The translations under genes and the position numbers were made by a program. The notes beneath the pieces are model-generated. The model saw nothing but the letters and a program-made list of their open reading frames with translations. It was not told the origin of the DNA and made no database searches. This document shows, piece by piece, positions 1 to 45,896 of a DNA stretch of 64,000 nt. The stretch covers positions 51,047 to 115,046 of IMG/VR virus record IMGVR_UViG_3300010399_000001, one strand, 5' to 3'. Every line of letters begins with the position of its first letter. Positions within the stretch are counted from its first letter, which is position 1. Origin of the DNA: a virus.

Positions 1-496
1 CGGCCTCTCGCGCCAGGCCGCGCTCATTCCGGCCATAGACGCGCTGAGACTTCTTCTTGGCTAATGCCCTTAGCCCATTGGCTAGGACCTCTAGCGCTTC
101 GGACTTGCGGCTTGCGGGGCGGCAGCAGCCGTCGCAGCCGTGGACCTGCCAGACATCGCGCCTGTCGTACCGCGCGAGCCAGTCCAGAGAGTCCGGGTCG
201 GGATGACCCACCCCGTGCGGGCAGATGCGCTCGCTCAGGGTCAGCTTCATCCCGTTGCGTACCACCTGGCGATCCATGCGGTGAACCAGCGGCCAGTGGT
301 TCATGTGGTGATTGGAGGGATTGTGGATGCAGCATCGCTGCCCCGCGCAGACCGAGGGGCTGTGGGTGTGCAGGACCGGACGACTATGGATCTCCTGATC
401 CGGACCATCCTTGCCGAGGATGGCGCTGATTTGATAGTCGTCGAAGATCATTGCATTGGCGATCCTGATGCCATCCCATGAACCGGACATGCTCAC
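1..496 (-). CDS. Cys/His-rich hypothetical phage protein, runs off the window start (not in the ORF track)
   Basis: Open frame from GTG 496 / ATG 490 to base 1: ...CAGQRCCIHNPSNHHMNHWP...ERICPHGVGHPDPD...HGCDGCC; GTGA overlap with the upstream stop. Confidence 0.7.
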   Translation of the reverse strand, partial: MSMSGSWDGIRIANAMIFDDYQISAILGKDGPDQEIHSRPVLHTHSPSVCAGQRCCIHNPSNHHMNHWPLVHRMDRQVVRNGMKLTLSERICPHGVGHPDPDSLDWLARYDRRDVWQVHGCDGCCRPASRKSEALEVLANGLRALAKKKSQRVYGRNERGLAREA

Positions 497-1029
497 TGCC
501 TGCTCCCCTCCGCCCATCGGCGGACGTTGCCGAGGTGCTTATCGGTGATACCGGTGCGAGGACTGACCGGCTCGTAGAGGGTCGGCGCGATCATACGGTC
601 CCGCATTCCGGCCTCGGTCAGATCCATCGGGGTGAACTCGTCATCCAGCCATGCGTACGGGCGATGGCGGACATACTCCTCCACGCTCGGCCGCTTCCAG
701 ATCCGCAGGGGATCGCCCCGCTGCCACACGCACTCGATGGTCGGTAACTGCGGCAGACCCAGGATGGGGGCGATCAGCTTGTTTGCCAGATCGTTCCACG
801 CGGTAGCCCAGACTAGATCCACAACGTCGGTCAGCTCAAGAAGCTGCCTGCCGTGATCGGGATTGAGCCACACCCGGATGCCACCCTTGACCCACGGGCG
901 GCCGAGTGGATCGGTGAATGCCCCGCTGAGCAGGCGGTGCGTCTGGAATCCCGGCGGCCTGCGGGTCGGCTTGGCCGCGTAGGGGTTGAGCGGACCGTCC
1001 ACATCGATCAGCAATAGCGGCTTGTTCAT
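493..1029 (-). CDS. HAD-superfamily protein, Swiss-Army-Knife RNA-repair-like HAD
   Basis: LLLIDVDGPLN (motif I), WATAW, WLDDE (motif IV); start reassigned to ATG 1029; directly downstream of Pnkp. Confidence 0.8.
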   Translation of the reverse strand: MNKPLLLIDVDGPLNPYAAKPTRRPPGFQTHRLLSGAFTDPLGRPWVKGGIRVWLNPDHGRQLLELTDVVDLVWATAWNDLANKLIAPILGLPQLPTIECVWQRGDPLRIWKRPSVEEYVRHRPYAWLDDEFTPMDLTEAGMRDRMIAPTLYEPVSPRTGITDKHLGNVRRWAEGSRQ

Positions 1030-1030
1030 C

Positions 1031-1993
1031 TCAGAAGTCTCCGTACTCGACCTGGTGGCAGGGCAGCTTGTAGACCAGCCGCCACAGATCGACCACCTGG
1101 TTGCGGTCGTCATAGACGGCCTCGACGTTGTAGCGGCCTCGGATGTTCTGCTCGAACAGCTGCGACTTGACCACGAAGTCCGGCCGCCTGTCCCCAGTGG
1201 GGCGCATGTGCAGGTCGCTGTACTTGATGTTGTGGGCTCGCAGCCACGCCTCGGTCTGCCTGCGGTACTCCTCCTGGCGGCCGGACAGAAGGATGATCTT
1301 GATCTCGCCGTCGACGTACGGGTAGATGTCGATCAGATTGGCAACTGCCTCGTTCAGGCTGTCGGTCTCCAGCTCCTCCAGGTCGTAGGGACCCCTATCC
1401 GCATGCTTCGCCAGGGTGCCGTCGATATCGAACAGCACGCACCAGGGCAGATCATCGTCGATAACGCAGGGCTGAACTGGGCGGATCAGGTCACGCCACT
1501 CGTTCATCCACTCATCGGTCAGCTTCCAGCCGTCCTTGCGGGTGGACTGATGGCGCTCCCACATACCCCGGATGACCGACTCGCCCACTCGCTCCCCATC
1601 GCGCCGCCCGGCGTCCACGGCGATGCACTCCTCGACCGTCATATCAGTCAGGTCGTGAACCCGGAAGATCACATTGCGGGTGGAGAGGGTCGTGCGGTAC
1701 CGATTGGGCAGCTTGTAGCCCATGTGGGTGTTGTCGATCACCACGTCGTATCCGGCGTCCACCGCGCTCATGACGCCGCGCAGCATGGCCTTCTGAACCA
1801 CCTTCTCGATGGCGTCATCCCATCTGGGGATGCTCATCATCCGGCGGTAGTCGTCCAGATTGAAGCGCATGGCCGAGATGCTGCGAGCGTACGTGCTCTT
1901 GCCAGAGCCGGGCAGGCCGTGCATCACATGGATCACCACCTCCTTACTGGATGGATCGTGACGCGGATCAGCCGCGAGATCGTAGACGCGCAT
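1031..1993 (-). CDS. pseT: Polynucleotide 5'-kinase/3'-phosphatase (T4 Pnkp-like)
   Basis: N-terminal P-loop GLPGSGKST plus IDNT; C-terminal HAD FDIDGTLA, SGR, RRPDFVVK, YDDRNQVV. Confidence 0.93.
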   Translation of the reverse strand: MRVYDLAADPRHDPSSKEVVIHVMHGLPGSGKSTYARSISAMRFNLDDYRRMMSIPRWDDAIEKVVQKAMLRGVMSAVDAGYDVVIDNTHMGYKLPNRYRTTLSTRNVIFRVHDLTDMTVEECIAVDAGRRDGERVGESVIRGMWERHQSTRKDGWKLTDEWMNEWRDLIRPVQPCVIDDDLPWCVLFDIDGTLAKHADRGPYDLEELETDSLNEAVANLIDIYPYVDGEIKIILLSGRQEEYRRQTEAWLRAHNIKYSDLHMRPTGDRRPDFVVKSQLFEQNIRGRYNVEAVYDDRNQVVDLWRLVYKLPCHQVEYGDF

Positions 1994-2042
1994 AGGTGTC
2001 TCCCGTCAGATGCAAGCGCTAGAGCGCTCCTAGCTTTATATA

Positions 2043-2056
2043 GAGTATTGTAGCAT
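2043..2056 (-). promoter_or_regulatory. Extended -10 promoter (TGCTACAAT) for pnkp; copy of a recurring phage motif
   Basis: Reverse complement ATGCTACAATACTC; identical copy at 59683-59696. Confidence 0.65.
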
Positions 2057-2081
2057 GTGCTTTAGATGAAGCTTGGATGTG

Positions 2082-2121
2082 CAGCTGCCCCGCTCTCAGG
2101 CCTGCGAGAGCGGGGCAGCTG
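2082..2121 (-). terminator. GC-rich hairpin after the Ro60 gene
   Basis: cagctgccccgctctc ... gagagcggggcagctg inverted repeat about 10 nt past the stop. Confidence 0.7.
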
Positions 2122-2132
2122 TATCAGCTCTG

Positions 2133-3797
2133 TTAGAAAGGCCAGCTACCATCACCGGCAGACAGCGAGGCCAGCATCGTGAACACCTTGTCGGAGAACC
2201 CGCCGATCTCGTACCGGTTCGGCTTGCTCGTGTCGATGCTGGATGCACCGTAACCCGAGGTGTTGATGCCGAACATCGGCACGCGGTCCGGAATGGCCTC
2301 CGACACGCTCATACCGCGCACCTTGCCGATCGCATCGTAGTAGCCGACCGAACCACCACCGGGGTAGTGGAACGCCTGCATGTCCGAGACGATGACCACC
2401 CGATCATGACCGGAGTAGCTGGCCTTGAGGGCGGCGACCGTCTCGGTACCGTGACCGACCGAGCCGACGCGCTTGCTGAATCCCTCGATGTCGCGCAGCA
2501 GGCTGCCGCCGTTCTTGAGCGGGTACTGGAAGACTCCGTTGGCGAAGCCGACCAGGTCCACATTCTTCGGACCGCACTTACGCGCGATCGCCACGCCGAT
2601 CAGAGCGCCGATATCGACATGACGGATGCTCGACTTGGCCGAGACGTTGCTGTGCATCGATCCGGAGGTGTCTACCAGGACCAGGGTGCGGCCCGGCAGG
2701 TTGGGGATGTTGGCGCATGCGTGACCCAGCGCCTCCTCCAGCGGCTGACCCCAGCGCAGCGAGTTGAGCGAGCGGTAAGCCGACAGGAACCGGTACGGGA
2801 ACTGGCGGGACTTGGCCACCTGAGCCGGGTCGCTGATGCGCGAGGCGACCTTCTCGTAGACCTCCTTGCCAAGCTTGGCCTCATCGAAGTTGCGCAGGTT
2901 GCGCAGCAGCGCCATGTAACCCATCGACGGGATGATCGCCTCCCAGGCGATGCGATCCATCGGGCCCTGGAGCCAGCCGGACAGCGCCTCCCAGGTGATG
3001 CCAGCCTCACGCAGCCGCTCCGCTGCACCGGAAGCCTTGACAAAGCTCCGGCGCTCAGCGAGGGGGAGGGACAGCAGCTCCTTGCGCTTGCGCAGCATCG
3101 TCAGCGACTCGGGGATCTCCTTGCCGCGCCCGTGCCTCTCGTCGATGATGTGCTCGAACAGGTCCCCCTGCTCGGGCGTGACGAATGCGGCGTTGAACCG
3201 GTCGACAGGGTGCACCATCTCGATCACGTCGGCGAAGCGCACACTCTTGTCCGGCGAGTCGTACTTGGAGTACGAGTACTCGCTGTAGAGGCGGCGCACC
3301 GCATCACCGGTACCGCGCTTGATCGAGATCGGGATGCGGTTGCGGCCATAGTTGGCGATCCAGTAGGCCAGCAGCTCCCCCGGCTCGTCGGCGCGAGAGC
3401 ACGCCAGGGAGATCAGGCGGCGGTTGATGCCGACCGGCACATCGTTGCGGATATCGGTCGGAGCCATGAGCGTGCGGGTACGCACCGCCTCGGCGGCGAT
3501 GACGATAGACGCGGTGCGCATGTTGGCCTCGTTGCGCAGCCACGGGATGAAGCCCAGCAGCCACTGCGGGTCCTCGCGCGCAACGGCGGCGGCCAGCTCC
3601 TTCAGGCGCTTGGCCTGGTCGCTCTTGGACTCGTAGAACTTGTCCTCGCCCATGTAGGTGACGGCCAGGATGAACAGGTCGCTCTTGGCGTCACGCTTGA
3701 ACGCCGCCCCACTCTCGAAGGTGGTGGTCTTCTCCCCCGTGGTGCGCACCGGCCCGAGGGTCGCAGTGCCACCCGAACGCTTGTTGAATCCAGACAT
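2133..3797 (-). CDS. rsr: Ro60/Rsr TROVE-domain RNA-binding protein with C-terminal vWA domain
   Basis: TROVE motifs (FYES, LRNEANMR, KYD, TWE, MGYMALLRNLRN, SRQFPYRFLSAY); vWA MIDAS DTSGSM, GT, VSDMQ. Confidence 0.95.
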   Translation of the reverse strand: MSGFNKRSGGTATLGPVRTTGEKTTTFESGAAFKRDAKSDLFILAVTYMGEDKFYESKSDQAKRLKELAAAVAREDPQWLLGFIPWLRNEANMRTASIVIAAEAVRTRTLMAPTDIRNDVPVGINRRLISLACSRADEPGELLAYWIANYGRNRIPISIKRGTGDAVRRLYSEYSYSKYDSPDKSVRFADVIEMVHPVDRFNAAFVTPEQGDLFEHIIDERHGRGKEIPESLTMLRKRKELLSLPLAERRSFVKASGAAERLREAGITWEALSGWLQGPMDRIAWEAIIPSMGYMALLRNLRNFDEAKLGKEVYEKVASRISDPAQVAKSRQFPYRFLSAYRSLNSLRWGQPLEEALGHACANIPNLPGRTLVLVDTSGSMHSNVSAKSSIRHVDIGALIGVAIARKCGPKNVDLVGFANGVFQYPLKNGGSLLRDIEGFSKRVGSVGHGTETVAALKASYSGHDRVVIVSDMQAFHYPGGGSVGYYDAIGKVRGMSVSEAIPDRVPMFGINTSGYGASSIDTSKPNRYEIGGFSDKVFTMLASLSAGDGSWPF

Positions 3798-3798
3798 G

Positions 3799-3827
3799 AA
3801 AAAACCCCTCTCGTCTTGACGGAGGGG
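3799..3827 (-). terminator. Intrinsic-terminator-like hairpin that sequesters the rsr Shine-Dalgarno
   Basis: Minus strand CCCCTC-CGTC-AA-GACG-A-GAGGGG-TTTTTT-C-ATG(rsr). Confidence 0.65.
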
Positions 3828-3834
3828 AAAGGCA

Positions 3835-3987
3835 TGGTAGCGCCCGAGATCAGAAGTCGGTGGCGGTGTTTTCAGTCTTATGCTCTACCTGACTGAGCTA
3901 CCCCACCCGAAGGCGGGGGCAGGATTCGAACCTGCGACCGTAAGATTAGCAATGAAGTATCCGTCACCTGCGCTTCGGGCGCTGCCA
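3835..3987 (-). ncRNA. yrlA: Y RNA unit 1, YrlA-type (circularly permuted tRNA-like domain)
   Basis: CCGAAGCGCAG...; T arm GCAGG-UUCGAAU-CCUGC, acceptor CCCCGCC-UUCG-GGUGGGG, D arm GCUC-AGUCAGGUA-GAGC; ...UGAUCUCGG; adjacent to rsr. Confidence 0.9.
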
Positions 3988-3994
3988 AAACCTT

Positions 3995-4081
3995 TCCCGA
4001 GATCAGTGTGAATGGCGGTATTATGCCTCGAACTACCATGTGAAGGTTATTGAGAAGTAACCGTCATTCTGCGCTTCGGGA
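3995..4081 (-). ncRNA. Y RNA unit 2 (short; hairpin with a tRNA-Val-like 7-nt loop)
   Basis: Same scaffold; insert ACC-UUCACAU-GGU in an imperfect hairpin. Confidence 0.8.
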
Positions 4082-4094
4082 TGAAGCCTTTGGT

Positions 4095-4204
4095 CCCTCC
4101 GAGATCAAGATGGCGATGGAGAGCGGGACTTGAACCCGCAGAATTCCGTTGCTTAGACAGAATCATTCAACCAATGAAGTAACCATCACCTGCGCTTCGG
4201 AGGG
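4095..4204 (-). ncRNA. Y RNA unit 3 (D-like arm, anticodon-like arm and T arm in normal tRNA order)
   Basis: CAUU-GGUUG-AAUG, AUUCUGU-CUAAGCA-ACGGAAU, GCGGG-UUCAAGU-CCCGC inside the scaffold. Confidence 0.82.
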
Positions 4205-4217
4205 TGAAGCAGTAGAT

Positions 4218-4370
4218 ATGGACATCCCCGAGATCGAGTCGACCAAGGTAACGTTAGGCGCTTTAGGCCACTAAGCTACCCCCGGATGAGCCCAGGGGGC
4301 AGGATTCGAACCTGCGATCTCCCGCTCCCAATGCGAAGTAACCCTATGTCTGCGCTTCGGGAATGTCCAT
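4218..4370 (-). ncRNA. yrlA: Y RNA unit 4, YrlA-type permuted tRNA-like domain
   Basis: T arm GCAGG-UUCGAAU-CCUGC, capped acceptor CCCCUGG/CCGGGGG, D arm GCUU-AGUGGCCUA-AAGC; terminal stem atggacat/atgtccat. Confidence 0.88.
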
Positions 4371-4382
4371 AACAAAGCAGGG

Positions 4383-4530
4383 GATGCGGTCCCGAGATCA
4401 ATTCGGCTGGGAGGTGTTTAACGTGCTGCCATTGCACCACCGGCCCAGGAGTGGACCGGACAGGATTCGAACCTGCATCTCTCCATTAGAAGTGAAGTAA
4501 CCCCTTATGCCTGCGCTTCGGGGCCGCATC
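4383..4530 (-). ncRNA. yrlA: Y RNA unit 5, YrlA-type permuted tRNA-like domain
   Basis: T arm GCAGG-UUCGAAU-CCUGU, acceptor CCGGUCC/GGGCCGG, D arm GUGC-AAUGGCA-GCAC; terminal stem gatgcgg/ccgcatc. Confidence 0.88.
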
Positions 4531-4559
4531 TTCTCATTCTCTATTCAGTTGTGAAAAGC

Positions 4560-4692
4560 ATCCCGAGATCAAGCCGGTGAACGAAAGCGCATTGGACCAC
4601 TCTGCCACGACCTGCCTGCACTAGTCAGACAGGCGCTGGGATTCGAACCCAGGTTCTCTGTGAGAAGTAACGCTCAACCTTCGCTTCGGGAT
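4560..4692 (-). ncRNA. yrlA: Y RNA unit 6, YrlA-type permuted tRNA-like domain with a long acceptor stem
   Basis: T arm CUGGG-UUCGAAU-CCCAG, extended stem CCUGUCUG/CAGGCAGG, Ser/Leu-like D arm GCAGAGUGGUCCAAUGC. Confidence 0.85.
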
Positions 4693-4703
4693 ATGAAGTT
4701 TGA

Positions 4704-4784
4704 CAGCTCCGAGATCAAGTCGATGCCAGGCGTTGGTGTCTAATTTACAGTTAGAAGTAACCCGGCTTCTTCGCTTCGGAACTG
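4704..4784 (-). ncRNA. Y RNA unit 7 (first transcribed; carries a tRNA-Tyr-like anticodon stem-loop)
   Basis: Scaffold plus UCUAA-CUGUAAA-UUAGA (5-bp stem, 7-nt loop CU-GUA-AA). Confidence 0.82.
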
Positions 4785-4789
4785 AGACT

Positions 4790-4818
4790 AAGCTACCGTG
4801 CTCATCGGCTAAGTGCAA
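4790..4818 (-). promoter_or_regulatory. Sigma70/HrdB-type promoter of the Y RNA-rsr operon
   Basis: TTGCAC-N17-TAGCTT on the minus strand; predicted start about 4784, the 5' end of unit 7. Confidence 0.75.
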
Positions 4819-7804: not shown

Positions 7805-8413
7805 ATGGCTACCTTCCTTGGGTTCGAGACTCTCAAGCTCGACGAACTGATTCCCTTCCCCGGCAATGCGCGTCGCGGTGACATCGACGGCATCCGCTCC
7901 TCGGTGCGCGCTCACGGCCAGTACCGCTCCCTGGTCGTTAGGCGCACTCCTGGTGGGGATGTGGTGCTCGCTGGCAACCACACGCTGCGCGCCCTGATCG
8001 CCGAAGGATTCACCGAGGCGCGCTGCGAGGTCATCGAGTGCAGCGAGGCTGACGCTATCAAGATCAACGTCGGAGACAACGGCTGGGGCGACAAGGCGAC
8101 CAATGACGAGAGCGCGCTGGCCGACCTGCTGGAGCTGCTGAACGGTGACTTTGAGGGCACCAGCTACACCCAGCAGGACTTCGAGGACATGCGCGGGCTG
8201 TGGGATGCGGATGAGAACTCCACGCCCGATCTGGACAAGCTGGCGGACGAGCTGGGAGATCCGGTCGACTCGGATCTGTGGCCCACGCTTCGCTTCAAGG
8301 TCCCCCCGCAGGTGCGCGACGACTTCTATGACCTGACGAACAATTGCGCCAATCCGAATGACGACAACAATCGGTTCATGCACCTGATCCAGAAGGTTCG
8401 GAGTGCAGAGTGA
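7805..8413 (+). CDS. ParB-like N-terminal domain protein leading the dpd cluster
   Basis: L.PFPGNARRGD...I..S...HGQYR.LVV....VLAGNHTLRA...DN. Confidence 0.85.
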   Translation: MATFLGFETLKLDELIPFPGNARRGDIDGIRSSVRAHGQYRSLVVRRTPGGDVVLAGNHTLRALIAEGFTEARCEVIECSEADAIKINVGDNGWGDKATNDESALADLLELLNGDFEGTSYTQQDFEDMRGLWDADENSTPDLDKLADELGDPVDSDLWPTLRFKVPPQVRDDFYDLTNNCANPNDDNNRFMHLIQKVRSAE

Positions 8414-9519
8414 CCTTCAGGTTCCTAGTCTCGTTCCACTATCACGAGAAGACGGACCTACAGGCGATCGTCGATGCCTACAACGGCCCATGCGAAGTGT
8501 TCGCCGACTCCGGCGCGTACTCCGCCGCCTCTCTCGGTGCGACGATCAAGCTCGCCGACTACGCCGCATGGCTCAAGGATTGGGAACACCTTCTGACCAT
8601 CAAGGCGACGCTGGATGTGATCGGGGACCCGCAGGCCACCGCCCGCAACACCCGCACGCTGGAGCGCCAGGGCATCAACGTGCTTCCCGTCTTCCATGTA
8701 GGCACCCCATGGGGCGAGCTGGAGAAGATGGTCAAGCAATACGACTATCTGGCCCTCGGGGGAATGGTCCCGCACAGCGGCAAGGCCGATGCGGTGATGC
8801 GCTGGCTGGTGAAGGCGTTCCAGGTGGCAAGGGAGACCGGCACCGTCTATCACGGCTTCGGTCAGACCAGACTGGAGACCATCAAGAAGCTGCCGTTCTA
8901 TTCGGTGGACTCCTCGGCATGGTCATCGGGGATGCGCTACGGCACGATCGTCCTATGGGATGAGAAGTCATCGAACTTCATCAAGCTACAGGCGTCAGAC
9001 CCGGCTCAAGCGCGCCGCTATGCAGCTCTCTTGCGCTCTCATGGCGCTAATCCGTCCCTGGTCGCGAAGCCAGGCTTCGCGATGCTCTCGCGCCGTACGC
9101 CGGAGCAGTTCAGGCGTGAGGTCTCGATGATGCGCGGAGCGCCCGCCATCGCCTATATGCGCATGGGGGAGTATCTGGCGCGGCGTCACAAGGTGCCCAG
9201 GCCCGCGAGCCTCGGCGATGGAAAGAACGGTACTGCCGTCTATGTGGCGGACGCCGCGATGAGGCATCTGGTGGACGCCGCACCCATCGTCAATGACGTT
9301 GGAACAGCTGTGTACCTGGCTGCGGATACCGGCGGCAGCTGCATGAAGATGGCGCTGGACCATATGCGCGATACCGGTACGCATGTCTATCTGGCCAACA
9401 CGGCTGCCATCAATCTGCGCGGCGCGGCAATGGTGGCGGGTGGCGTAGACGCTAACGAGGTAGACAAGAGTGTCTACATCGACGAGATCCGAAAGAAGAA
9501 GGATGGGGAGAATGAGTAA
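8410..9519 (+). CDS. dpdA: DpdA-like 7-deazaguanine DNA transglycosylase (TGT fold)
   Basis: DSGAYS, LDVIGD, PVFH, LALGG, YHGFG, SVDSSAW; directly upstream of queCDE-folE. Confidence 0.8.
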   Translation: MTFRFLVSFHYHEKTDLQAIVDAYNGPCEVFADSGAYSAASLGATIKLADYAAWLKDWEHLLTIKATLDVIGDPQATARNTRTLERQGINVLPVFHVGTPWGELEKMVKQYDYLALGGMVPHSGKADAVMRWLVKAFQVARETGTVYHGFGQTRLETIKKLPFYSVDSSAWSSGMRYGTIVLWDEKSSNFIKLQASDPAQARRYAALLRSHGANPSLVAKPGFAMLSRRTPEQFRREVSMMRGAPAIAYMRMGEYLARRHKVPRPASLGDGKNGTAVYVADAAMRHLVDAAPIVNDVGTAVYLAADTGGSCMKMALDHMRDTGTHVYLANTAAINLRGAAMVAGGVDANEVDKSVYIDEIRKKKDGENE

Positions 9520-10207
9520 GCCGCTTGCGGTGGTGTCCCTCTCGGGCGGGATGGACTCCACGACCCTGCTGGCCCACCTGCTGCAAGACAATGAGGTGCT
9601 GGCTCTATCGTTCGACTACGGACAGCGCCACCGCAAGGAGCTGGACGCGGCCAGGGATGTCTCGCAGTACTACGGCGTCGAGCATCACGTGATCGATCTG
9701 ACCTCGGTGGGCAAGCTGCTGACCGGCTCGGCTCTTACCGACAGCTCGGTAGAGGTTCCCGAGGGTCACTACGAGGCCGAGAACATGAAGGCCACCGTCG
9801 TGCCGAACCGCAACGCGATCATGGCCAGCATCGCCATCGGTATTGCCAGTTCGCGCAAGGCGAAGTTCGTGGCTCTCGGCATCCATGCCGGTGATCACGC
9901 GGTCTACCCGGACTGCCGGCCTGAGTTCGTCGAGGTGCTGCGGGAGCTGGCCTCTGTGGCGCTGGACGGCTTCCATGCCCCACGCATCGAGACTCCGTTC
10001 GTGCTGTGGTCCAAGACTGGCATTGCGCGTGAGGCTGGACGCCTCGGGGTCCCGATCGAGCGCACGTGGAGCTGCTACAAGGGTGGCGAGAAACACTGCG
10101 GCCGATGCGGTACCTGCGTCGAGCGCATCGAGGCGATGCGGGACGCAGACGTGGCAGATCTGACCGAATACGAAGATAAGGCGTTCGCCGAGGGGGTGCT
10201 GGCCTGA
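9512..10207 (+). CDS. queC: 7-cyano-7-deazaguanine synthase
   Basis: SGGMDS, FDYGQRH, VPNRN, YPDCRPEF, TWSCY, CGRCGTC. Confidence 0.97.
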   Translation: MSKPLAVVSLSGGMDSTTLLAHLLQDNEVLALSFDYGQRHRKELDAARDVSQYYGVEHHVIDLTSVGKLLTGSALTDSSVEVPEGHYEAENMKATVVPNRNAIMASIAIGIASSRKAKFVALGIHAGDHAVYPDCRPEFVEVLRELASVALDGFHAPRIETPFVLWSKTGIAREAGRLGVPIERTWSCYKGGEKHCGRCGTCVERIEAMRDADVADLTEYEDKAFAEGVLA

Positions 10208-10641
10208 TGTATGAGATCGCGGTACGGCATAACTTCGAGACCGCACATCGGCTACCGCACCTTGAGGGCAAGTGTCAGTCTCTCCACGGGCACTCCTGGT
10301 GGGCTGAGGTCACCGTTGCCGCACCTGTGCTGCGCGGCGGCATCCTAGTTGAGTTCGGACCGTTCAAGAAGGCCCTGCGCGAGTGGATCGACACCAACCT
10401 CGATCACGGTGCAATGCTCGGCTTCGATGATCCGCTGCTGCCGATCCTGCGCGGCCACGGCAGCAAGGTGTATGAGTTCACCCACTGGCCAACGGTTGAA
10501 GAGGTCGCATCCGAGATCGGCTTCAAGGCTCAGGAGATACTCACCACAATCACGCGCGCACCGGGAGCGGCGGTCATCCGCTGCGATGTGCAGGAGACCC
10601 ACGTCAACCGAGCATCTTGGACGCCGCCGCATGATGCCTGA
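10207..10641 (+). CDS. queD: 6-carboxy-5,6,7,8-tetrahydropterin synthase
   Basis: FETAHRL...KCQSLHGHSW, LDH, PTVE, ET. Confidence 0.95.
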   Translation: MYEIAVRHNFETAHRLPHLEGKCQSLHGHSWWAEVTVAAPVLRGGILVEFGPFKKALREWIDTNLDHGAMLGFDDPLLPILRGHGSKVYEFTHWPTVEEVASEIGFKAQEILTTITRAPGAAVIRCDVQETHVNRASWTPPHDA

Positions 10642-11338
10642 GAAGTCGCTGATGGTCAGCGAGGTATTCGGCCCCACCTTCCAGGGGGAGGGGCCGAGTA
10701 CCGGACGTAGGGCGGTATTCATCAGGCTAATGGGCTGCAATCTGACCTGCAAGTGGTGCGATACGCCGTACACCTGGGACGGCAAGAGGTTCGACCTGCG
10801 CGCCGAAGGCAAGCGGATGCAGGTCGCTCGGATCATCCGCAAGATCAGCGGTAAGCCGGAGCTGGCGGTTATCACCGGAGGCGAACCTCTGCTGCACCAG
10901 GAGCAGAGTGGCTGGATACCACTCCTGGATGAACTGGTCGCACATGGCCTGAAGATCGAGATCGAGACCAACGGTACCCAGCTACCCACGACGCAGACGG
11001 AGATGCGGGTGGCCCGCTTCAATGTCTCGCCGAAACTGGCGCACGCGGGCGACAAGGAAGATAAGCGCCTGAAGTACGACGTGCTGCGCGCGCTGGTGGT
11101 GACTGGAGCGGCGATCTTCAAGTTCGTCGCGCGCACCGCCTCCGATCTGGACCAGGTGGAGCGCATCGTAGAACGGGCTCAGATCCCTAACGAGCTAGTC
11201 TGGATCATGCCCGAGGGTACCGATGCCGAGACCCTGACCCGGGGCATCCAGACGCTAGCGCCGCTCGTCGTGACGCGCGGATGGAATCTCACTACGCGTC
11301 TGCATGTGATCGCGTATGGCGATAGAAGAGGTGTATAG
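10634..11338 (+). CDS. queE: 7-carboxy-7-deazaguanine synthase (radical SAM)
   Basis: TFQGEG, FIRLMGCNLTCKWCDT, ITGGEPLL, IETNGT, VSPKL. Confidence 0.96.
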   Translation: MPEKSLMVSEVFGPTFQGEGPSTGRRAVFIRLMGCNLTCKWCDTPYTWDGKRFDLRAEGKRMQVARIIRKISGKPELAVITGGEPLLHQEQSGWIPLLDELVAHGLKIEIETNGTQLPTTQTEMRVARFNVSPKLAHAGDKEDKRLKYDVLRALVVTGAAIFKFVARTASDLDQVERIVERAQIPNELVWIMPEGTDAETLTRGIQTLAPLVVTRGWNLTTRLHVIAYGDRRGV

Positions 11339-11914
11339 ATGACCGATACCGCTGCCGCTCAGGCTGGCGTGCGGGCGCTGCTGCTTGGCATCGGAGAGAA
11401 TCCGGACCGGCCTGGCCTGAAGGAGACTCCGCGCCGGGTGGCGAAGGCGCTTATCGACTTCACGACACCTACCGGTCCAAGTCCGCAGGAGCTTCTGGCC
11501 GTCACATTCAACGACGCCGATCCCGCACCGGACCAGATGATCACAGTAGGGCCGATCGAGTTCGCATCGCTCTGCGAGCATCACCTTCTACCATTCACCG
11601 GGCACGCGTATGTCGGCTACATCCCCGGCGCGGCCGGGGCGGTGGTGGGCCTGTCCAAGCTGGCACGCCTGGTGGACTGGTATGCGCACGGCCTCCAGAT
11701 CCAGGAGCGCCTTACCGCTCAGGTGACAGGGGCGATCGACAAGTACCTCGATACCCTCGGCTCGGCCTGCACGATCCACTCGTCGCATTCCTGCATGACC
11801 TCTCGCGGCGCTCACAAGCCTGGTGCGATCATGCGTACCACCTCTCTAACTGGAGCGTTCCGGGATCAGGATGCGACCAGGGCAGAGTTTCTAGCCCACA
11901 CGCGCTGCTGCTGA
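11339..11914 (+). CDS. folE: GTP cyclohydrolase I
   Basis: GENPDRPGLKETPRRVA, SLCEHHLLPF, GLSKLAR, QIQERLT, HSCM..RG. Confidence 0.97.
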   Translation: MTDTAAAQAGVRALLLGIGENPDRPGLKETPRRVAKALIDFTTPTGPSPQELLAVTFNDADPAPDQMITVGPIEFASLCEHHLLPFTGHAYVGYIPGAAGAVVGLSKLARLVDWYAHGLQIQERLTAQVTGAIDKYLDTLGSACTIHSSHSCMTSRGAHKPGAIMRTTSLTGAFRDQDATRAEFLAHTRCC

Positions 11915-45828: not shown

Positions 45829-45896
45829 TGCGCCCATGAGGATTTGAACCTCAAACCTCCGGTAAACCGGTGCTCTGGCAGTTGAGCTACAGGCGC
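45829..45896 (-). ncRNA. tRNA-like RNA lacking an anticodon loop (4-nt loop)
   Basis: GCGCCUG/UGGGCGC acceptor, D arm GCUC-AACUGCCA-GAGC, CCGG-UUUA-CCGG, T arm UGAGG-UUCAAAU-CCUCA; hairpin 45789-45826 follows. Confidence 0.8.

What the first reader, a model, noticed from the sequence alone, without database searches (positions are those of the whole stretch)
4739..4755. Y RNA unit 7 displays a perfect tRNA-Tyr(GUA) anticodon stem-loop
Seen: UCUAA-CUGUAAA-UUAGA, a 5-bp stem with the canonical Tyr loop CU-GUA-AA, followed by CACCA. Known: U33-G34-U35 in a 7-nt loop is the minimal substrate of tRNA-guanine transglycosylase, and GUN anticodons are targets of colicin-E5-type RNases. The phage also encodes preQ0 synthesis. 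Inference: the loop could decoy a GUN-specific anticodon nuclease, or sponge host TGT so that deazaguanine is spared for DNA modification.
Basis: partly seen in the sequence, partly recalled or inferred. Interest (0 to 1): 0.78.

Follow-up and report, generated by a model that had tools for sequence, protein, structure and literature searches.

The report
Phage Y RNA displaying tRNA-Tyr anticodon arm
A soil phage encodes, beside its Ro60 gene, a small RNA made only of a Ro60-binding stem topped by a copy of the tRNA-Tyr anticodon arm, one case of a wider habit, which I did not find in the papers I could read, of actinobacterial and phage Y RNAs carrying tRNA-style anticodon arms.

Summary
On the minus strand at 4755..4739 lies UCUAA-CUGUAAA-UUAGA, the tip of an 81-nt unit (4784..4704). 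It is the first of seven tandem Y-RNA units upstream of a phage Ro60 (rsr) gene and a polynucleotide kinase-phosphatase (Pnkp) gene.

It sits where Chen et al. 2014 placed the "V" stem-loop, just after the conserved YUAY motif. I collected 401 homologous units from 160 rsr loci. In these, the hairpin often has a 5-bp stem, supported by covariation, and a 7-nt loop with C32, U33, R37 and A38. A34 is avoided and G37 follows G36, as in tRNAs. Of 114 comparable loops, 87 equal a real tRNA loop.

CUGUAAA recurs in four other loci on different stems. One is also the first unit of a 9-unit array in a distant 111-kb phage. The triplet itself varies freely between close relatives.

The TGT-sponge idea is poorly supported. 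TGT was missing from 103 of 121 sampled genomes of the class. The distant phage with the same unit has no preQ0 or DpdA genes.

A decoy or bait for enzymes that read anticodon loops is plausible but untested.

The scan noted similar anticodon-display RNAs beside Ro60-like genes on other DNA.

The parts
4739..4755 (-). Anticodon-arm look-alike: 5-bp stem UCUAA/UUAGA with 7-nt loop CUGUAAA (C32 U33 G34 U35 A36 A37 A38)
   Evidence: Read directly. Predicted as the apical hairpin in the MFE and centroid folds. Shuffles expect 0.01 such hairpins per window.
4704..4784 (-). Y RNA unit 7 (81 nt). It consists of a terminal stem, a Ro60-binding-type bulged helix, a second stem GCCGGGU/GCCUGGC, and an internal loop holding UUAC, with the anticodon arm as its only module. 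It has no T, D or acceptor arms.
   Evidence: Fold with z = -3.4. Unit boundaries. No Rfam hit at E<=10 and no ARAGORN tRNA call over it.
4769..4780 (-). 5' conserved motif UCCGAAGCGAAG. This is the CGAAG core of the published GNCGAAN0-1G motif thought to be recognised by Rsr.
   Evidence: Seven copies in the array against 0 expected by chance. The motif is described in PMC4201824.
4754..4762 (-). GGUUACUUC, the conserved YUAY motif that begins the 'V' stem-loop of YrlA-type RNAs. Its UUC forms the 5' strand of the hairpin base.
   Evidence: Present in all 7 units and in 401 homologous units. YUAY is described in PMC4201824.
4708..4718 (-). 3' conserved motif UUGAUCUCGGA, which pairs with the 5' motif to close the unit
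3839..4784 (-). Array of seven tandem Y-RNA units: 4784-4704, 4693-4559, 4522-4391, 4371-4217, 4204-4095, 4081-3995 and 3983-3839. All share one scaffold, but their modules differ.
   Evidence: Rfam YrlA matches below the gathering score on three units: 50.2, 27.9 and 25.4 bits.
2133..3797 (-). rsr / Ro60 orthologue (554 aa, TROVE domain), directly downstream of the array
   Evidence: Pfam TROVE at 1.8e-14. More than 6000 homologues at E<=1e-50, the nearest cellular ones in Streptomyces and Catenulispora.
1031..1993 (-). Polynucleotide kinase-phosphatase (Pnkp), an RNA end-healing enzyme
   Evidence: Pfam HAD_PNKP at 1.8e-46 plus AAA_33. PHROG 505 polynucleotide kinase at 5e-76.
493..1113 (-). 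Second HAD-type protein, with a weak match to 'HAD domain in Swiss Army Knife RNA repair proteins'
   Evidence: Pfam PF18143 at 26.3 bits, just under its cut-off of 27.5.
4790..4818 (-). Candidate promoter TTGCAC-17 nt-TAGCTT, ending about 6 nt before the first base of unit 7
   Evidence: Seen by eye only. The consensus scan did not report it.
3799..3827 (-). Terminator-like hairpin (CCCCUCC ... GAGGGG followed by U6) between the last unit and the rsr start codon
   Evidence: Read directly. The scan did not report it because the loop is longer than 8 nt.

Best explanation
Unit 7 is a minimal, YrlB-like Y RNA of a roughly 115-kb soil phage, probably an actinophage. A conserved stem of the kind that Ro60/Rsr binds carries a single module, a replica of a tRNA anticodon arm with the tRNA-Tyr(GUA) loop.

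The hairpin is homologous to the 'V' stem-loop that follows the YUAY motif in YrlA RNAs. In the actinobacterial and actinophage branch, that stem-loop is a tRNA-type anticodon arm. In the tRNA-like units it is followed by a variable loop and a T arm.

Inferred mechanism: the RNA is cut out of a seven-unit transcript and bound by the phage Ro60. It then presents the anticodon loop to a protein that reads anticodon loops. The most likely such protein is a host anticodon-loop nuclease, for which the RNA would serve as bait or a competing substrate. The long Y stem and Ro60 would hold a nicked loop together, so that the neighbouring Pnkp and a host ligase could heal it.

What is shown: the sequence, the fold prediction, the covariation, the tRNA-like loop rules and the gene neighbourhood. 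What is inferred: transcription, Ro60 binding, the identity of the protein that reads the loop, and the decoy role.
For: Anatomy
- There are seven units against 0 expected by chance, lying upstream of the TROVE gene and Pnkp.
- The fold predicts the apical hairpin with z = -3.4.

Placement
- In 401 non-redundant units from 160 rsr loci, CU...AA occurs at offset 0 or 1 after UAC in 97 units. Other offsets give 0-3.

Stem
- I took 80 units chosen by loop alone. In these, 92.5% of stem cells pair against 65.8% in shuffles (0 of 500 shuffles reach it).
- There are 87 cells changed on both sides against 22.6 expected. Slid controls give 30-56% pairing.

Loop rules
- Over 131 loops: C32 82%, U33 85%, R37 89%, A38 80%.
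- A34 occurs in 7 of 123 loops, and 92.7% of triplets are natural anticodons.
- G37 follows G36 in 20 of 25 loops, against 3 of 98 otherwise (Fisher 1.6e-15, not corrected for relatedness).
- After removing ARAGORN calls that were really Y units, 87 of 114 comparable loops equal a real tRNA loop with the same anticodon. For non-consensus loops the figure is 11 of 29, against a permutation mean of 5.5 and maximum of 10.

Recurrence of the Tyr loop
- CUGUAAA recurs on four other stems, in L242, L351, L366 and L350.
- In L242 it is again an arm-only unit and again the first of the array.

Experimental anchor
- The published probe for M. smegmatis YrlA, an RNA shown to be bound by Rsr, implies CCA-CUUCUAA-UGG at the same place.

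Context from papers
- A phage Ro60 binds Y-like RNAs and host PNPase (PMC12135203).
- A phage Ro60-like gene counters a defence system (PMC11482910).
Against: - There is no expression or binding evidence for this phage.
- The anticodon triplet is no more conserved than unconstrained positions. In 12 Lentzea genomes the orthologous unit carries GUU, UUU, GUA, CCU, GCA or CGG, and positions 34-36 have a pairwise difference of 0.53-0.62 against a median of 0. The Tyr identity may therefore not be selected.
- Given the base frequencies at each loop position, five CUGUAAA loops among about 97 CU...AA loops is close to expectation.
- Many short units carry other loops, such as triloops, AUUGG-type loops and pyrimidine-rich loops.
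- Mimic loops match CU...AA more often than real tRNA loops do (72% against 48%). The frame may therefore serve a Y-RNA-specific purpose.
- The phage has no RNA ligase.
- The same kind of unit sits in bacterial chromosomes, so a purely anti-defence role cannot be the general one.
- No anticodon nuclease of the host is known, and the host itself is unknown.
Confidence: 0.45

Rival explanations
1. The hairpin is an evolutionary relic with a purely structural role. It is the leftover anticodon arm of the tRNA, or tRNA dimer, from which Y-RNA modules arose. It is kept only as a stable stem-loop with a U-turn. The triplet drifts freely, and the 'Tyr' reading has no meaning for function.
For: - The dimeric-tRNA origin model is published (10.1101/312249).
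- Rfam's tRNA model and ARAGORN read the 5' halves of many units as ordinary tRNAs.
- Triplets vary as much as unconstrained positions in Lentzea.
- The number of CUGUAAA loops is near what position-wise base composition predicts.
- Many units carry other kinds of loop.
Against: - The loop frame and the 5-bp stem are strongly maintained.
- A34 is avoided and G37 is coupled to G36 as in real tRNAs. One Lentzea genome, L368, changed five of the seven loop positions to give an exact tRNA-Pro(CGG) loop. Drift within a fixed frame does not predict this.
- Arm-only units exist, in which the hairpin is the entire module.
Confidence: 0.3
2. The loop specifically decoys a nuclease that cuts GUN anticodons (colicin E5 type), which attacks tRNA-Tyr, His, Asn and Asp.
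For: - U33-G34-U35 sits in a 7-nt loop.
- Two of the phage's three tRNAs called by ARAGORN are GUN tRNAs, Asp(GUC) and Asn(GUU).
- GUU is the commonest triplet among mimic loops, and GUN triplets make up 27 of 123.
- Pnkp lies next door.
Against: - Arrays in relatives display many non-GUN triplets, including those of Ser, Lys, Arg, Trp, Pro and Met.
- The counts are not corrected for relatedness between units.
- No such nuclease is known for the host, which is itself unknown.
- No cleavage data exist.
Confidence: 0.1
3. The loop sponges host tRNA-guanine transglycosylase (TGT), so that preQ0 is spared for modifying the phage DNA.
For: - UGU in a 7-nt loop is the known minimal TGT substrate. 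This rests on established knowledge and was not tested here.
- The phage encodes QueC, QueD, QueE, FolE and a DpdA-like enzyme.
Against: - TGT was not found in Lentzea pudingi, Catenulispora rubra or Streptomyces smaragdinus, while all 14 control genomes were positive.
- TGT was found in only 18 of 121 sampled genomes of the class.
- Phage L242 has the same Tyr-only first unit but no QueC and no DpdA homologue.
- Lentzea chromosomes carry Tyr units without any phage deazaguanine pathway.
- Bacterial TGT uses preQ1 rather than preQ0. This is established knowledge, not a test made here.
Confidence: 0.03
4. The hairpin is a chance hairpin or an assembly artefact in non-transcribed spacer DNA.
For: The automatic scan found no promoter.
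Against: - Nearly the same array lies in contigs from at least three soil metagenome runs of different studies. One contig spans the whole stretch with 4 differences.
- The motif occurs seven times against 0 expected.
- Homologous arrays lie beside rsr in 160 loci.
Confidence: 0.02

Closest known systems
YrlA, the tRNA-like bacterial Y RNA (Rfam RF02553; Chen et al. 2014, PMC4201824; structure in Wang et al. 2018, 10.1101/312249)
   Same: - It is encoded just upstream of rsr on the same strand.
- It has the CGAAG-type 5' motif and the YUAY motif, and its 5' and 3' ends pair.
- Four sister units in the array (1, 4, 5 and 6) have the T arm, closed acceptor stem and D arm in the YrlA order.
   Different: - Unit 7 has no T, D or acceptor arms.
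- The published descriptions call the hairpin after YUAY a variable ('V') arm and state that YrlA lacks an anticodon loop.
- Here, and in more than 100 relatives, that hairpin has the size and loop rules of an anticodon arm.
Short Y RNAs: S. Typhimurium and M. smegmatis YrlB, and D. radiodurans Yrn2 (PMC4201824)
   Same: It is a second, shorter Rsr-associated RNA encoded in tandem with YrlA and processed from one precursor. It is essentially one long hairpin with a small loop.
   Different: The published short RNAs are described as having a small pyrimidine-rich loop, and M. smegmatis YrlB as having a possible T arm. Unit 7 has an exact tRNA-Tyr-type 7-nt loop on a 5-bp stem.
Anticodon stem-loop of tRNA-Tyr(GUA)
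   Same: The 7-nt loop CUGUAAA is identical, the stem has 5 bp, and U33 and A37 are in place.
   Different: The stem sequence is dictated by the Y-RNA UUC motif. The rest of the tRNA is absent, so the RNA cannot be charged or decode.
Phage answers to tRNA-cutting defences: T4 Pnkp with Rnl1 against PrrC, and phage tRNAs with altered anticodon loops (van den Berg et al. 2023, cited in PMC11482910)
   Same: A Pnkp gene lies in the same operon-like block, and the logic concerns anticodon loops as a battleground.
   Different: - The phage has no ligase.
- The element is not a functional tRNA but a Ro60-bound display RNA.
- A decoy mechanism has not been shown for any Y RNA.
Thermus phage phiLo Ro60 with Yrl1 and Yrl2 (PMC12135203)
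   Same: It is a phage-encoded Ro60 with Y-like RNAs upstream, identified through the CGAA motif.
   Different: It has two RNAs rather than seven. The passages I read mention no anticodon-arm mimicry. Its Ro60 is only about 24% identical to the one here.

Membership tests
Bacterial/phage Y RNA (Rsr-associated) | Encoded within about 4 kb of rsr on the same strand | tested here: met
   Unit 7 lies 907-987 nt upstream of the rsr start codon on the minus strand.
Bacterial/phage Y RNA (Rsr-associated) | GNCGAAN0-1G motif near the 5' end | tested here: inconclusive
   The core CGAAG is present (UUCCGAAG). The first G of the published motif is U here, and it is C or U in the sister units.
Bacterial/phage Y RNA (Rsr-associated) | The 5' and 3' ends pair into a long, bulged stem | tested here: met
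   The MFE and centroid folds show it, with z = -3.4.
Bacterial/phage Y RNA (Rsr-associated) | Bound and stabilised by Rsr/Ro60 | not testable with these tools
   This needs immunoprecipitation or a gel-shift assay.
YrlA (RF02553) | T arm, closed acceptor-like stem and D arm forming a tRNA elbow | tested here: not met
   Rfam gives no hit over 4704-4784 even at E<=10, and the module is a single hairpin. Sister unit 1 scores 50.2 bits, below the gathering score of 69.
YrlA (RF02553) | Conserved YUAY at the start of the 'V' stem-loop | tested here: met
   UUAC lies at 4760-4757, directly before the hairpin.
tRNA / tRNA-Tyr gene | Cloverleaf with acceptor, D and T arms | tested here: not met
   Neither ARAGORN nor the Rfam tRNA model calls anything at unit 7.
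tRNA anticodon arm (as a structural motif) | 5-bp stem and 7-nt loop with Y32, U33 and R37 | tested here: met
   The hairpin is UCUAA/UUAGA with loop C-U-GUA-A-A. The same rules hold across homologous units, with covariation in the stem.
Substrate of tRNA-guanine transglycosylase | U33-G34-U35 in a 7-nt loop, and a TGT enzyme present in the cell | tested here: inconclusive
   The sequence feature is met. TGT was not found in 103 of 121 sampled genomes of the class, nor in three rsr-bearing actinomycetes. The true host is unknown.

The most novel reading that the evidence does not exclude
Ro60 particles of actinobacteria and their phages carry exchangeable anticodon-arm 'cassettes'. The Y-RNA scaffold stays nearly invariant, while the displayed anticodon loop changes from lineage to lineage and keeps to tRNA loop rules.

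The particles would then be specificity-swappable baits or sensors for anticodon-loop nucleases. They would be self-holding after a cut and healable by Pnkp and a ligase. Arm-only units such as unit 7 would be the minimal form. This would give the long-unexplained tRNA-like domain of bacterial Y RNAs a concrete role.
Probability: 0.25. Interest if true: 0.85.

Novelty: new variant of a known kind. Interest (0 to 1): 0.7.

Why it matters
Ro60 and its Y RNAs are conserved from bacteria to humans, yet what the tRNA-like part of bacterial Y RNAs does has been open since 2014. The papers I could read treat the hairpin after YUAY as a variable arm and say YrlA has no anticodon loop.

In a large branch, that hairpin obeys anticodon-arm rules. 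It can stand alone as the whole module, and its triplet is among the most variable parts of an otherwise frozen RNA. Together these give a direct experimental handle: swap or mutate the loop and ask what binds, cuts or modifies it.

In phages the link to Pnkp points to the contest over tRNA integrity.

There is also a practical consequence for annotation. ARAGORN, and at least two GenBank phage records, appear to call such units tRNA genes.

Tried and rejected
I therefore could not fetch the contigs of the closest Ro60 relatives, P0002 (77% identical) and P0003 (75%). The best test of loop conservation in near relatives was not possible.
- The search for related loci with the single protein found nothing in viral contigs. 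The alignment query worked.
- The first DNA pattern scans gave mostly chance hits in GC-rich coding DNA, and only a handful of real units.
- The MAFFT alignment of whole arm-only units (A2) put gaps inside the stem, so I did not use it for pair counts. I used fixed 19-nt windows instead (A3).
- My first comparison with 'real' tRNAs (98 of 117 identical loops) was inflated, because ARAGORN had called 46 Y units as tRNAs. After removing them the figure is 87 of 114.
- I considered that the recurrence of CUGUAAA proves selection for Tyr. I rejected this, because position-wise base frequencies predict about four such loops and five were seen.
- I considered that the anticodons displayed on the Y RNAs avoid the phage's own tRNA set. 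There is no overlap in this phage or in L242, but with sets this small that is expected by chance about one time in three.
- No run listed as holding the stretch is on record as RNA.
- Run X5 has no cover over 4675-4744. One of its contigs joins 4530 to 4754, with the letters between unknown. This is not interpretable.
- The host could not be assigned. The terminase is at most 41% identical to that of any cultured phage, and another large protein has almost no relatives.
- The promoter scan found nothing.

Full report
**Observation.** The reported hairpin is real but lies on the minus strand. T4755 to A4739 reads UCUAA-CUGUAAA-UUAGA, followed by CACCAACG. CTGTAAA occurs only twice in the window, and only this copy is closed by five pairs. 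Shuffled windows give 0.01 such hairpins. The 81-nt unit 4784..4704 folds at -26.5 kcal/mol with z = -3.4, and 0 of 200 shuffles fold as well. The fold gives a terminal stem, a bulged helix, a second stem and this hairpin at the tip.

**Surroundings.** The hairpin belongs to the first of seven tandem units on the minus strand, spanning 4784..3839.
- Each unit is framed by CCGAAGCG(C/A)AG ... GGUUACUUC ... UGAUCUCGG. There are seven matches against 0 expected by chance.
- The array ends at a terminator-like hairpin one base before a 554-aa TROVE-domain protein, Ro60/Rsr (3797..2133).
- A polynucleotide kinase-phosphatase and a second HAD protein follow.
- Rfam's YrlA model matches three units below its gathering score. 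The best is 50.2 bits for the last unit.
- The record is a complete 115-kb virus with terminal repeats and 62% G+C, from soil.
- No cultured phage is close.
- Nearly the same array lies in contigs of at least three soil runs from different studies, so it is not an assembly artefact.

**What the hairpin corresponds to.** Chen et al. [quoted passage not shown] Wang et al. 2018 state that YrlA lacks the anticodon loop. Unit 7's hairpin starts right after UUAC, so it occupies this 'V' position. Unit 7 has no T, D or acceptor arms, so by build it is a short Y RNA of the YrlB kind.

**Homologues.** I collected rsr loci from four sources:
- cultured actinophages;
- IMG/VR viral contigs;
- metagenomes;
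- actinobacterial genomes.

Of 178 loci with rsr, 160 have recognisable units upstream on the same strand. This gives 401 non-redundant units.

*Placement.* The loop pattern CU...AA occurs at offset 0 or 1 after UAC in 97 units, against 0-3 at any other offset.

*Stem.* I chose 80 distinct units by that loop pattern alone, not by pairing.
- The five flanking pairs form in 92.5% of cells, against 65.8% in shuffles (0 of 500 shuffles reach it).
- There are 87 cells changed on both sides, against 22.6 expected.
- Slid controls give 30-56% pairing.

*Loop rules.*
- Over 131 seven-base loops: C32 82%, U33 85%, purine-37 89%, A38 80%.
- A34 is rare (7 of 123), and 92.7% of triplets are natural anticodons.
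- G37 follows G36 in 20 of 25 loops, against 3 of 98 otherwise (Fisher 1.6e-15, not corrected for relatedness).

*Comparison with real tRNAs.* ARAGORN had called 46 Y units as tRNAs. After removing these, 87 of 114 comparable loops equal a real tRNA loop of the same anticodon from the same set of loci. For loops outside the CU...AA consensus the figure is 11 of 29, against a permutation mean of 5.5 and a maximum of 10.

In the tRNA-like units the hairpin is followed by a typical variable loop such as AGGUC, then the T arm. That is the order found in a tRNA.

The published probe for M. smegmatis YrlA, an RNA shown to be bound by Rsr, implies CCA-CUUCUAA-UGG at the same place.

I conclude that in this branch the 'V' stem-loop is a tRNA-type anticodon arm. 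I did not find this stated in the papers I could read. Two reviews were not held.

**The Tyr loop itself.** CUGUAAA recurs in four other loci, on four other stems:
- a 111-kb phage (L242; Ro60 52% identical);
- Lentzea pudingi (L351);
- an actinomycete metagenome-assembled genome (L366);
- a tRNA-like unit of another Lentzea (L350).

In L242 it is again an arm-only unit and again the first of the array, here of nine units.

Against a specific Tyr role, the evidence is as follows.
- Twelve Lentzea genomes have an almost invariant tRNA-like unit, with a median pairwise difference of 0.
- Its loop reads GUU (five times), UUU (twice), GUA, CCU, GCA, and CGG, plus one odd loop. The CGG case has U32 and G37, an exact tRNA-Pro loop.
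- Positions 34-36 differ at 0.53-0.62. That is as high as the freest positions elsewhere in the RNA.
- Given the base frequencies at each loop position, about four CUGUAAA loops are expected and five are seen.
- Many short units carry other loops altogether.

The frame of the loop is therefore conserved. The triplet is free or diversifying, but it stays largely tRNA-legal.

The preQ0 statement is correct. QueC, QueD, QueE and FolE are present, with a DpdA-like enzyme beside them. The TGT-sponge idea fares badly on three counts.
- TGT was not found in three rsr-bearing actinomycete genomes, while all 14 control genomes were positive.
- TGT was found in only 18 of 121 sampled genomes of the class.
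- Phage L242 has the same Tyr unit but neither QueC nor a DpdA homologue.

The decoy idea is neither shown nor excluded.
- In its favour: Pnkp lies next door. The long Y stem could hold a cut loop together. The triplet is hypervariable but legal. A phage Ro60-like gene is reported to counter a defence system.
- Against it: there is no ligase in the phage. No nuclease is known. The same units lie in bacterial chromosomes. There are no RNA data.
- Two of the phage's three ARAGORN-called tRNAs are GUN tRNAs, Asp and Asn. This is a weak hint for a GUN-specific story, and arrays elsewhere display many non-GUN loops.

**Verdict.** Unit 7 is an arm-only Y RNA that displays a tRNA-Tyr-type anticodon arm. 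It is a new variant within the known Ro60/Y-RNA kind. Its function is inferred: my best guess is bait or tether for a protein that reads anticodon loops (0.45). A structural relic is the main rival (0.3). The TGT sponge is unlikely (0.03).

The scan's own earlier notes describe the same array in overlapping windows of this genome. They also describe anticodon-display RNAs beside Ro60-like genes in unrelated phages. These are unchecked leads, not evidence.

Noticed in passing
window 45829-45896 (-): A tRNA-like gene scores 53.6 bits with Rfam's tRNA model, but its anticodon stem is closed by only 2-3 bases, with no anticodon loop. ARAGORN does not call it.
   Followed up: no
window 8410-11914 (+): A 7-deazaguanine DNA-modification cluster: a DpdA-like transglycosylase (found by PHROG only; Pfam TGT misses it), then QueC, QueD, QueE and FolE.
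   Followed up: partly
L119 2677-2748 (Gordonia phage VanLee); L117 2769-2843 (Streptomyces phage GiJojo): The GenBank features tRNA-Arg(tct) and tRNA-Arg(cct) overlap Y-RNA units, which carry the 5' Ro-type motif and UUACUUC followed by an anticodon-arm hairpin. ARAGORN likewise called 46 Y units in the fetched loci as tRNAs, so phage tRNA counts may be inflated.
   Followed up: partly
L350-L374 (12 Lentzea genomes), about 180 nt upstream of rsr: The tRNA-like Y unit is nearly invariant except for its anticodon-like loop, which reads GUU, UUU, GUA, CCU, GCA or CGG. The CGG case also changes positions 32 and 37, giving an exact tRNA-Pro loop.
   Followed up: yes
window 4541-4553 (-) and 98 of 401 units in other loci: A conserved motif ACAACU(U/G/C)NA lies 18-23 nt upstream of the CGAAG/GGUGC motif in 24% of units, against 0.6% of random 45-nt windows. 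It could be a processing site or an internal promoter element.
   Followed up: partly
window 4095-4204 (-), unit 3; L242 unit at 933 nt before rsr: A non-permuted tRNA-like module sits inside the Y stem: a D-like hairpin, a 7-bp stem with loop CUAAGCA, and a T arm. The matching unit of phage L242 has loop CUUCCAA instead.
   Followed up: partly
window 3839-3983 (-), unit 1: This is the classic YrlA layout. The anticodon stem UAAGA/UCUUA forms between the D side and the T side. A full Phe-type loop, CUGAAAA, runs from it into the Y stem.
   Followed up: partly
window 4530/4754, run X5: A soil metagenome holds a relative about 88% alike. One of its contigs joins 4530 to 4754, skipping 223 nt that include unit 6 and the unit 7 hairpin. 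The letters in between are not known.
   Followed up: no
window 3799-3827 (-): A terminator-like hairpin with a U6 tract ends one base before the rsr start codon. Ro60 would then be made only by read-through.
   Followed up: no
window 493-3797 (-) and whole genome: Ro60, Pnkp and a HAD protein are adjacent. However, no RtcB or Rnl-type RNA ligase was found anywhere in the 115-kb genome or in phage L242.
   Followed up: yes
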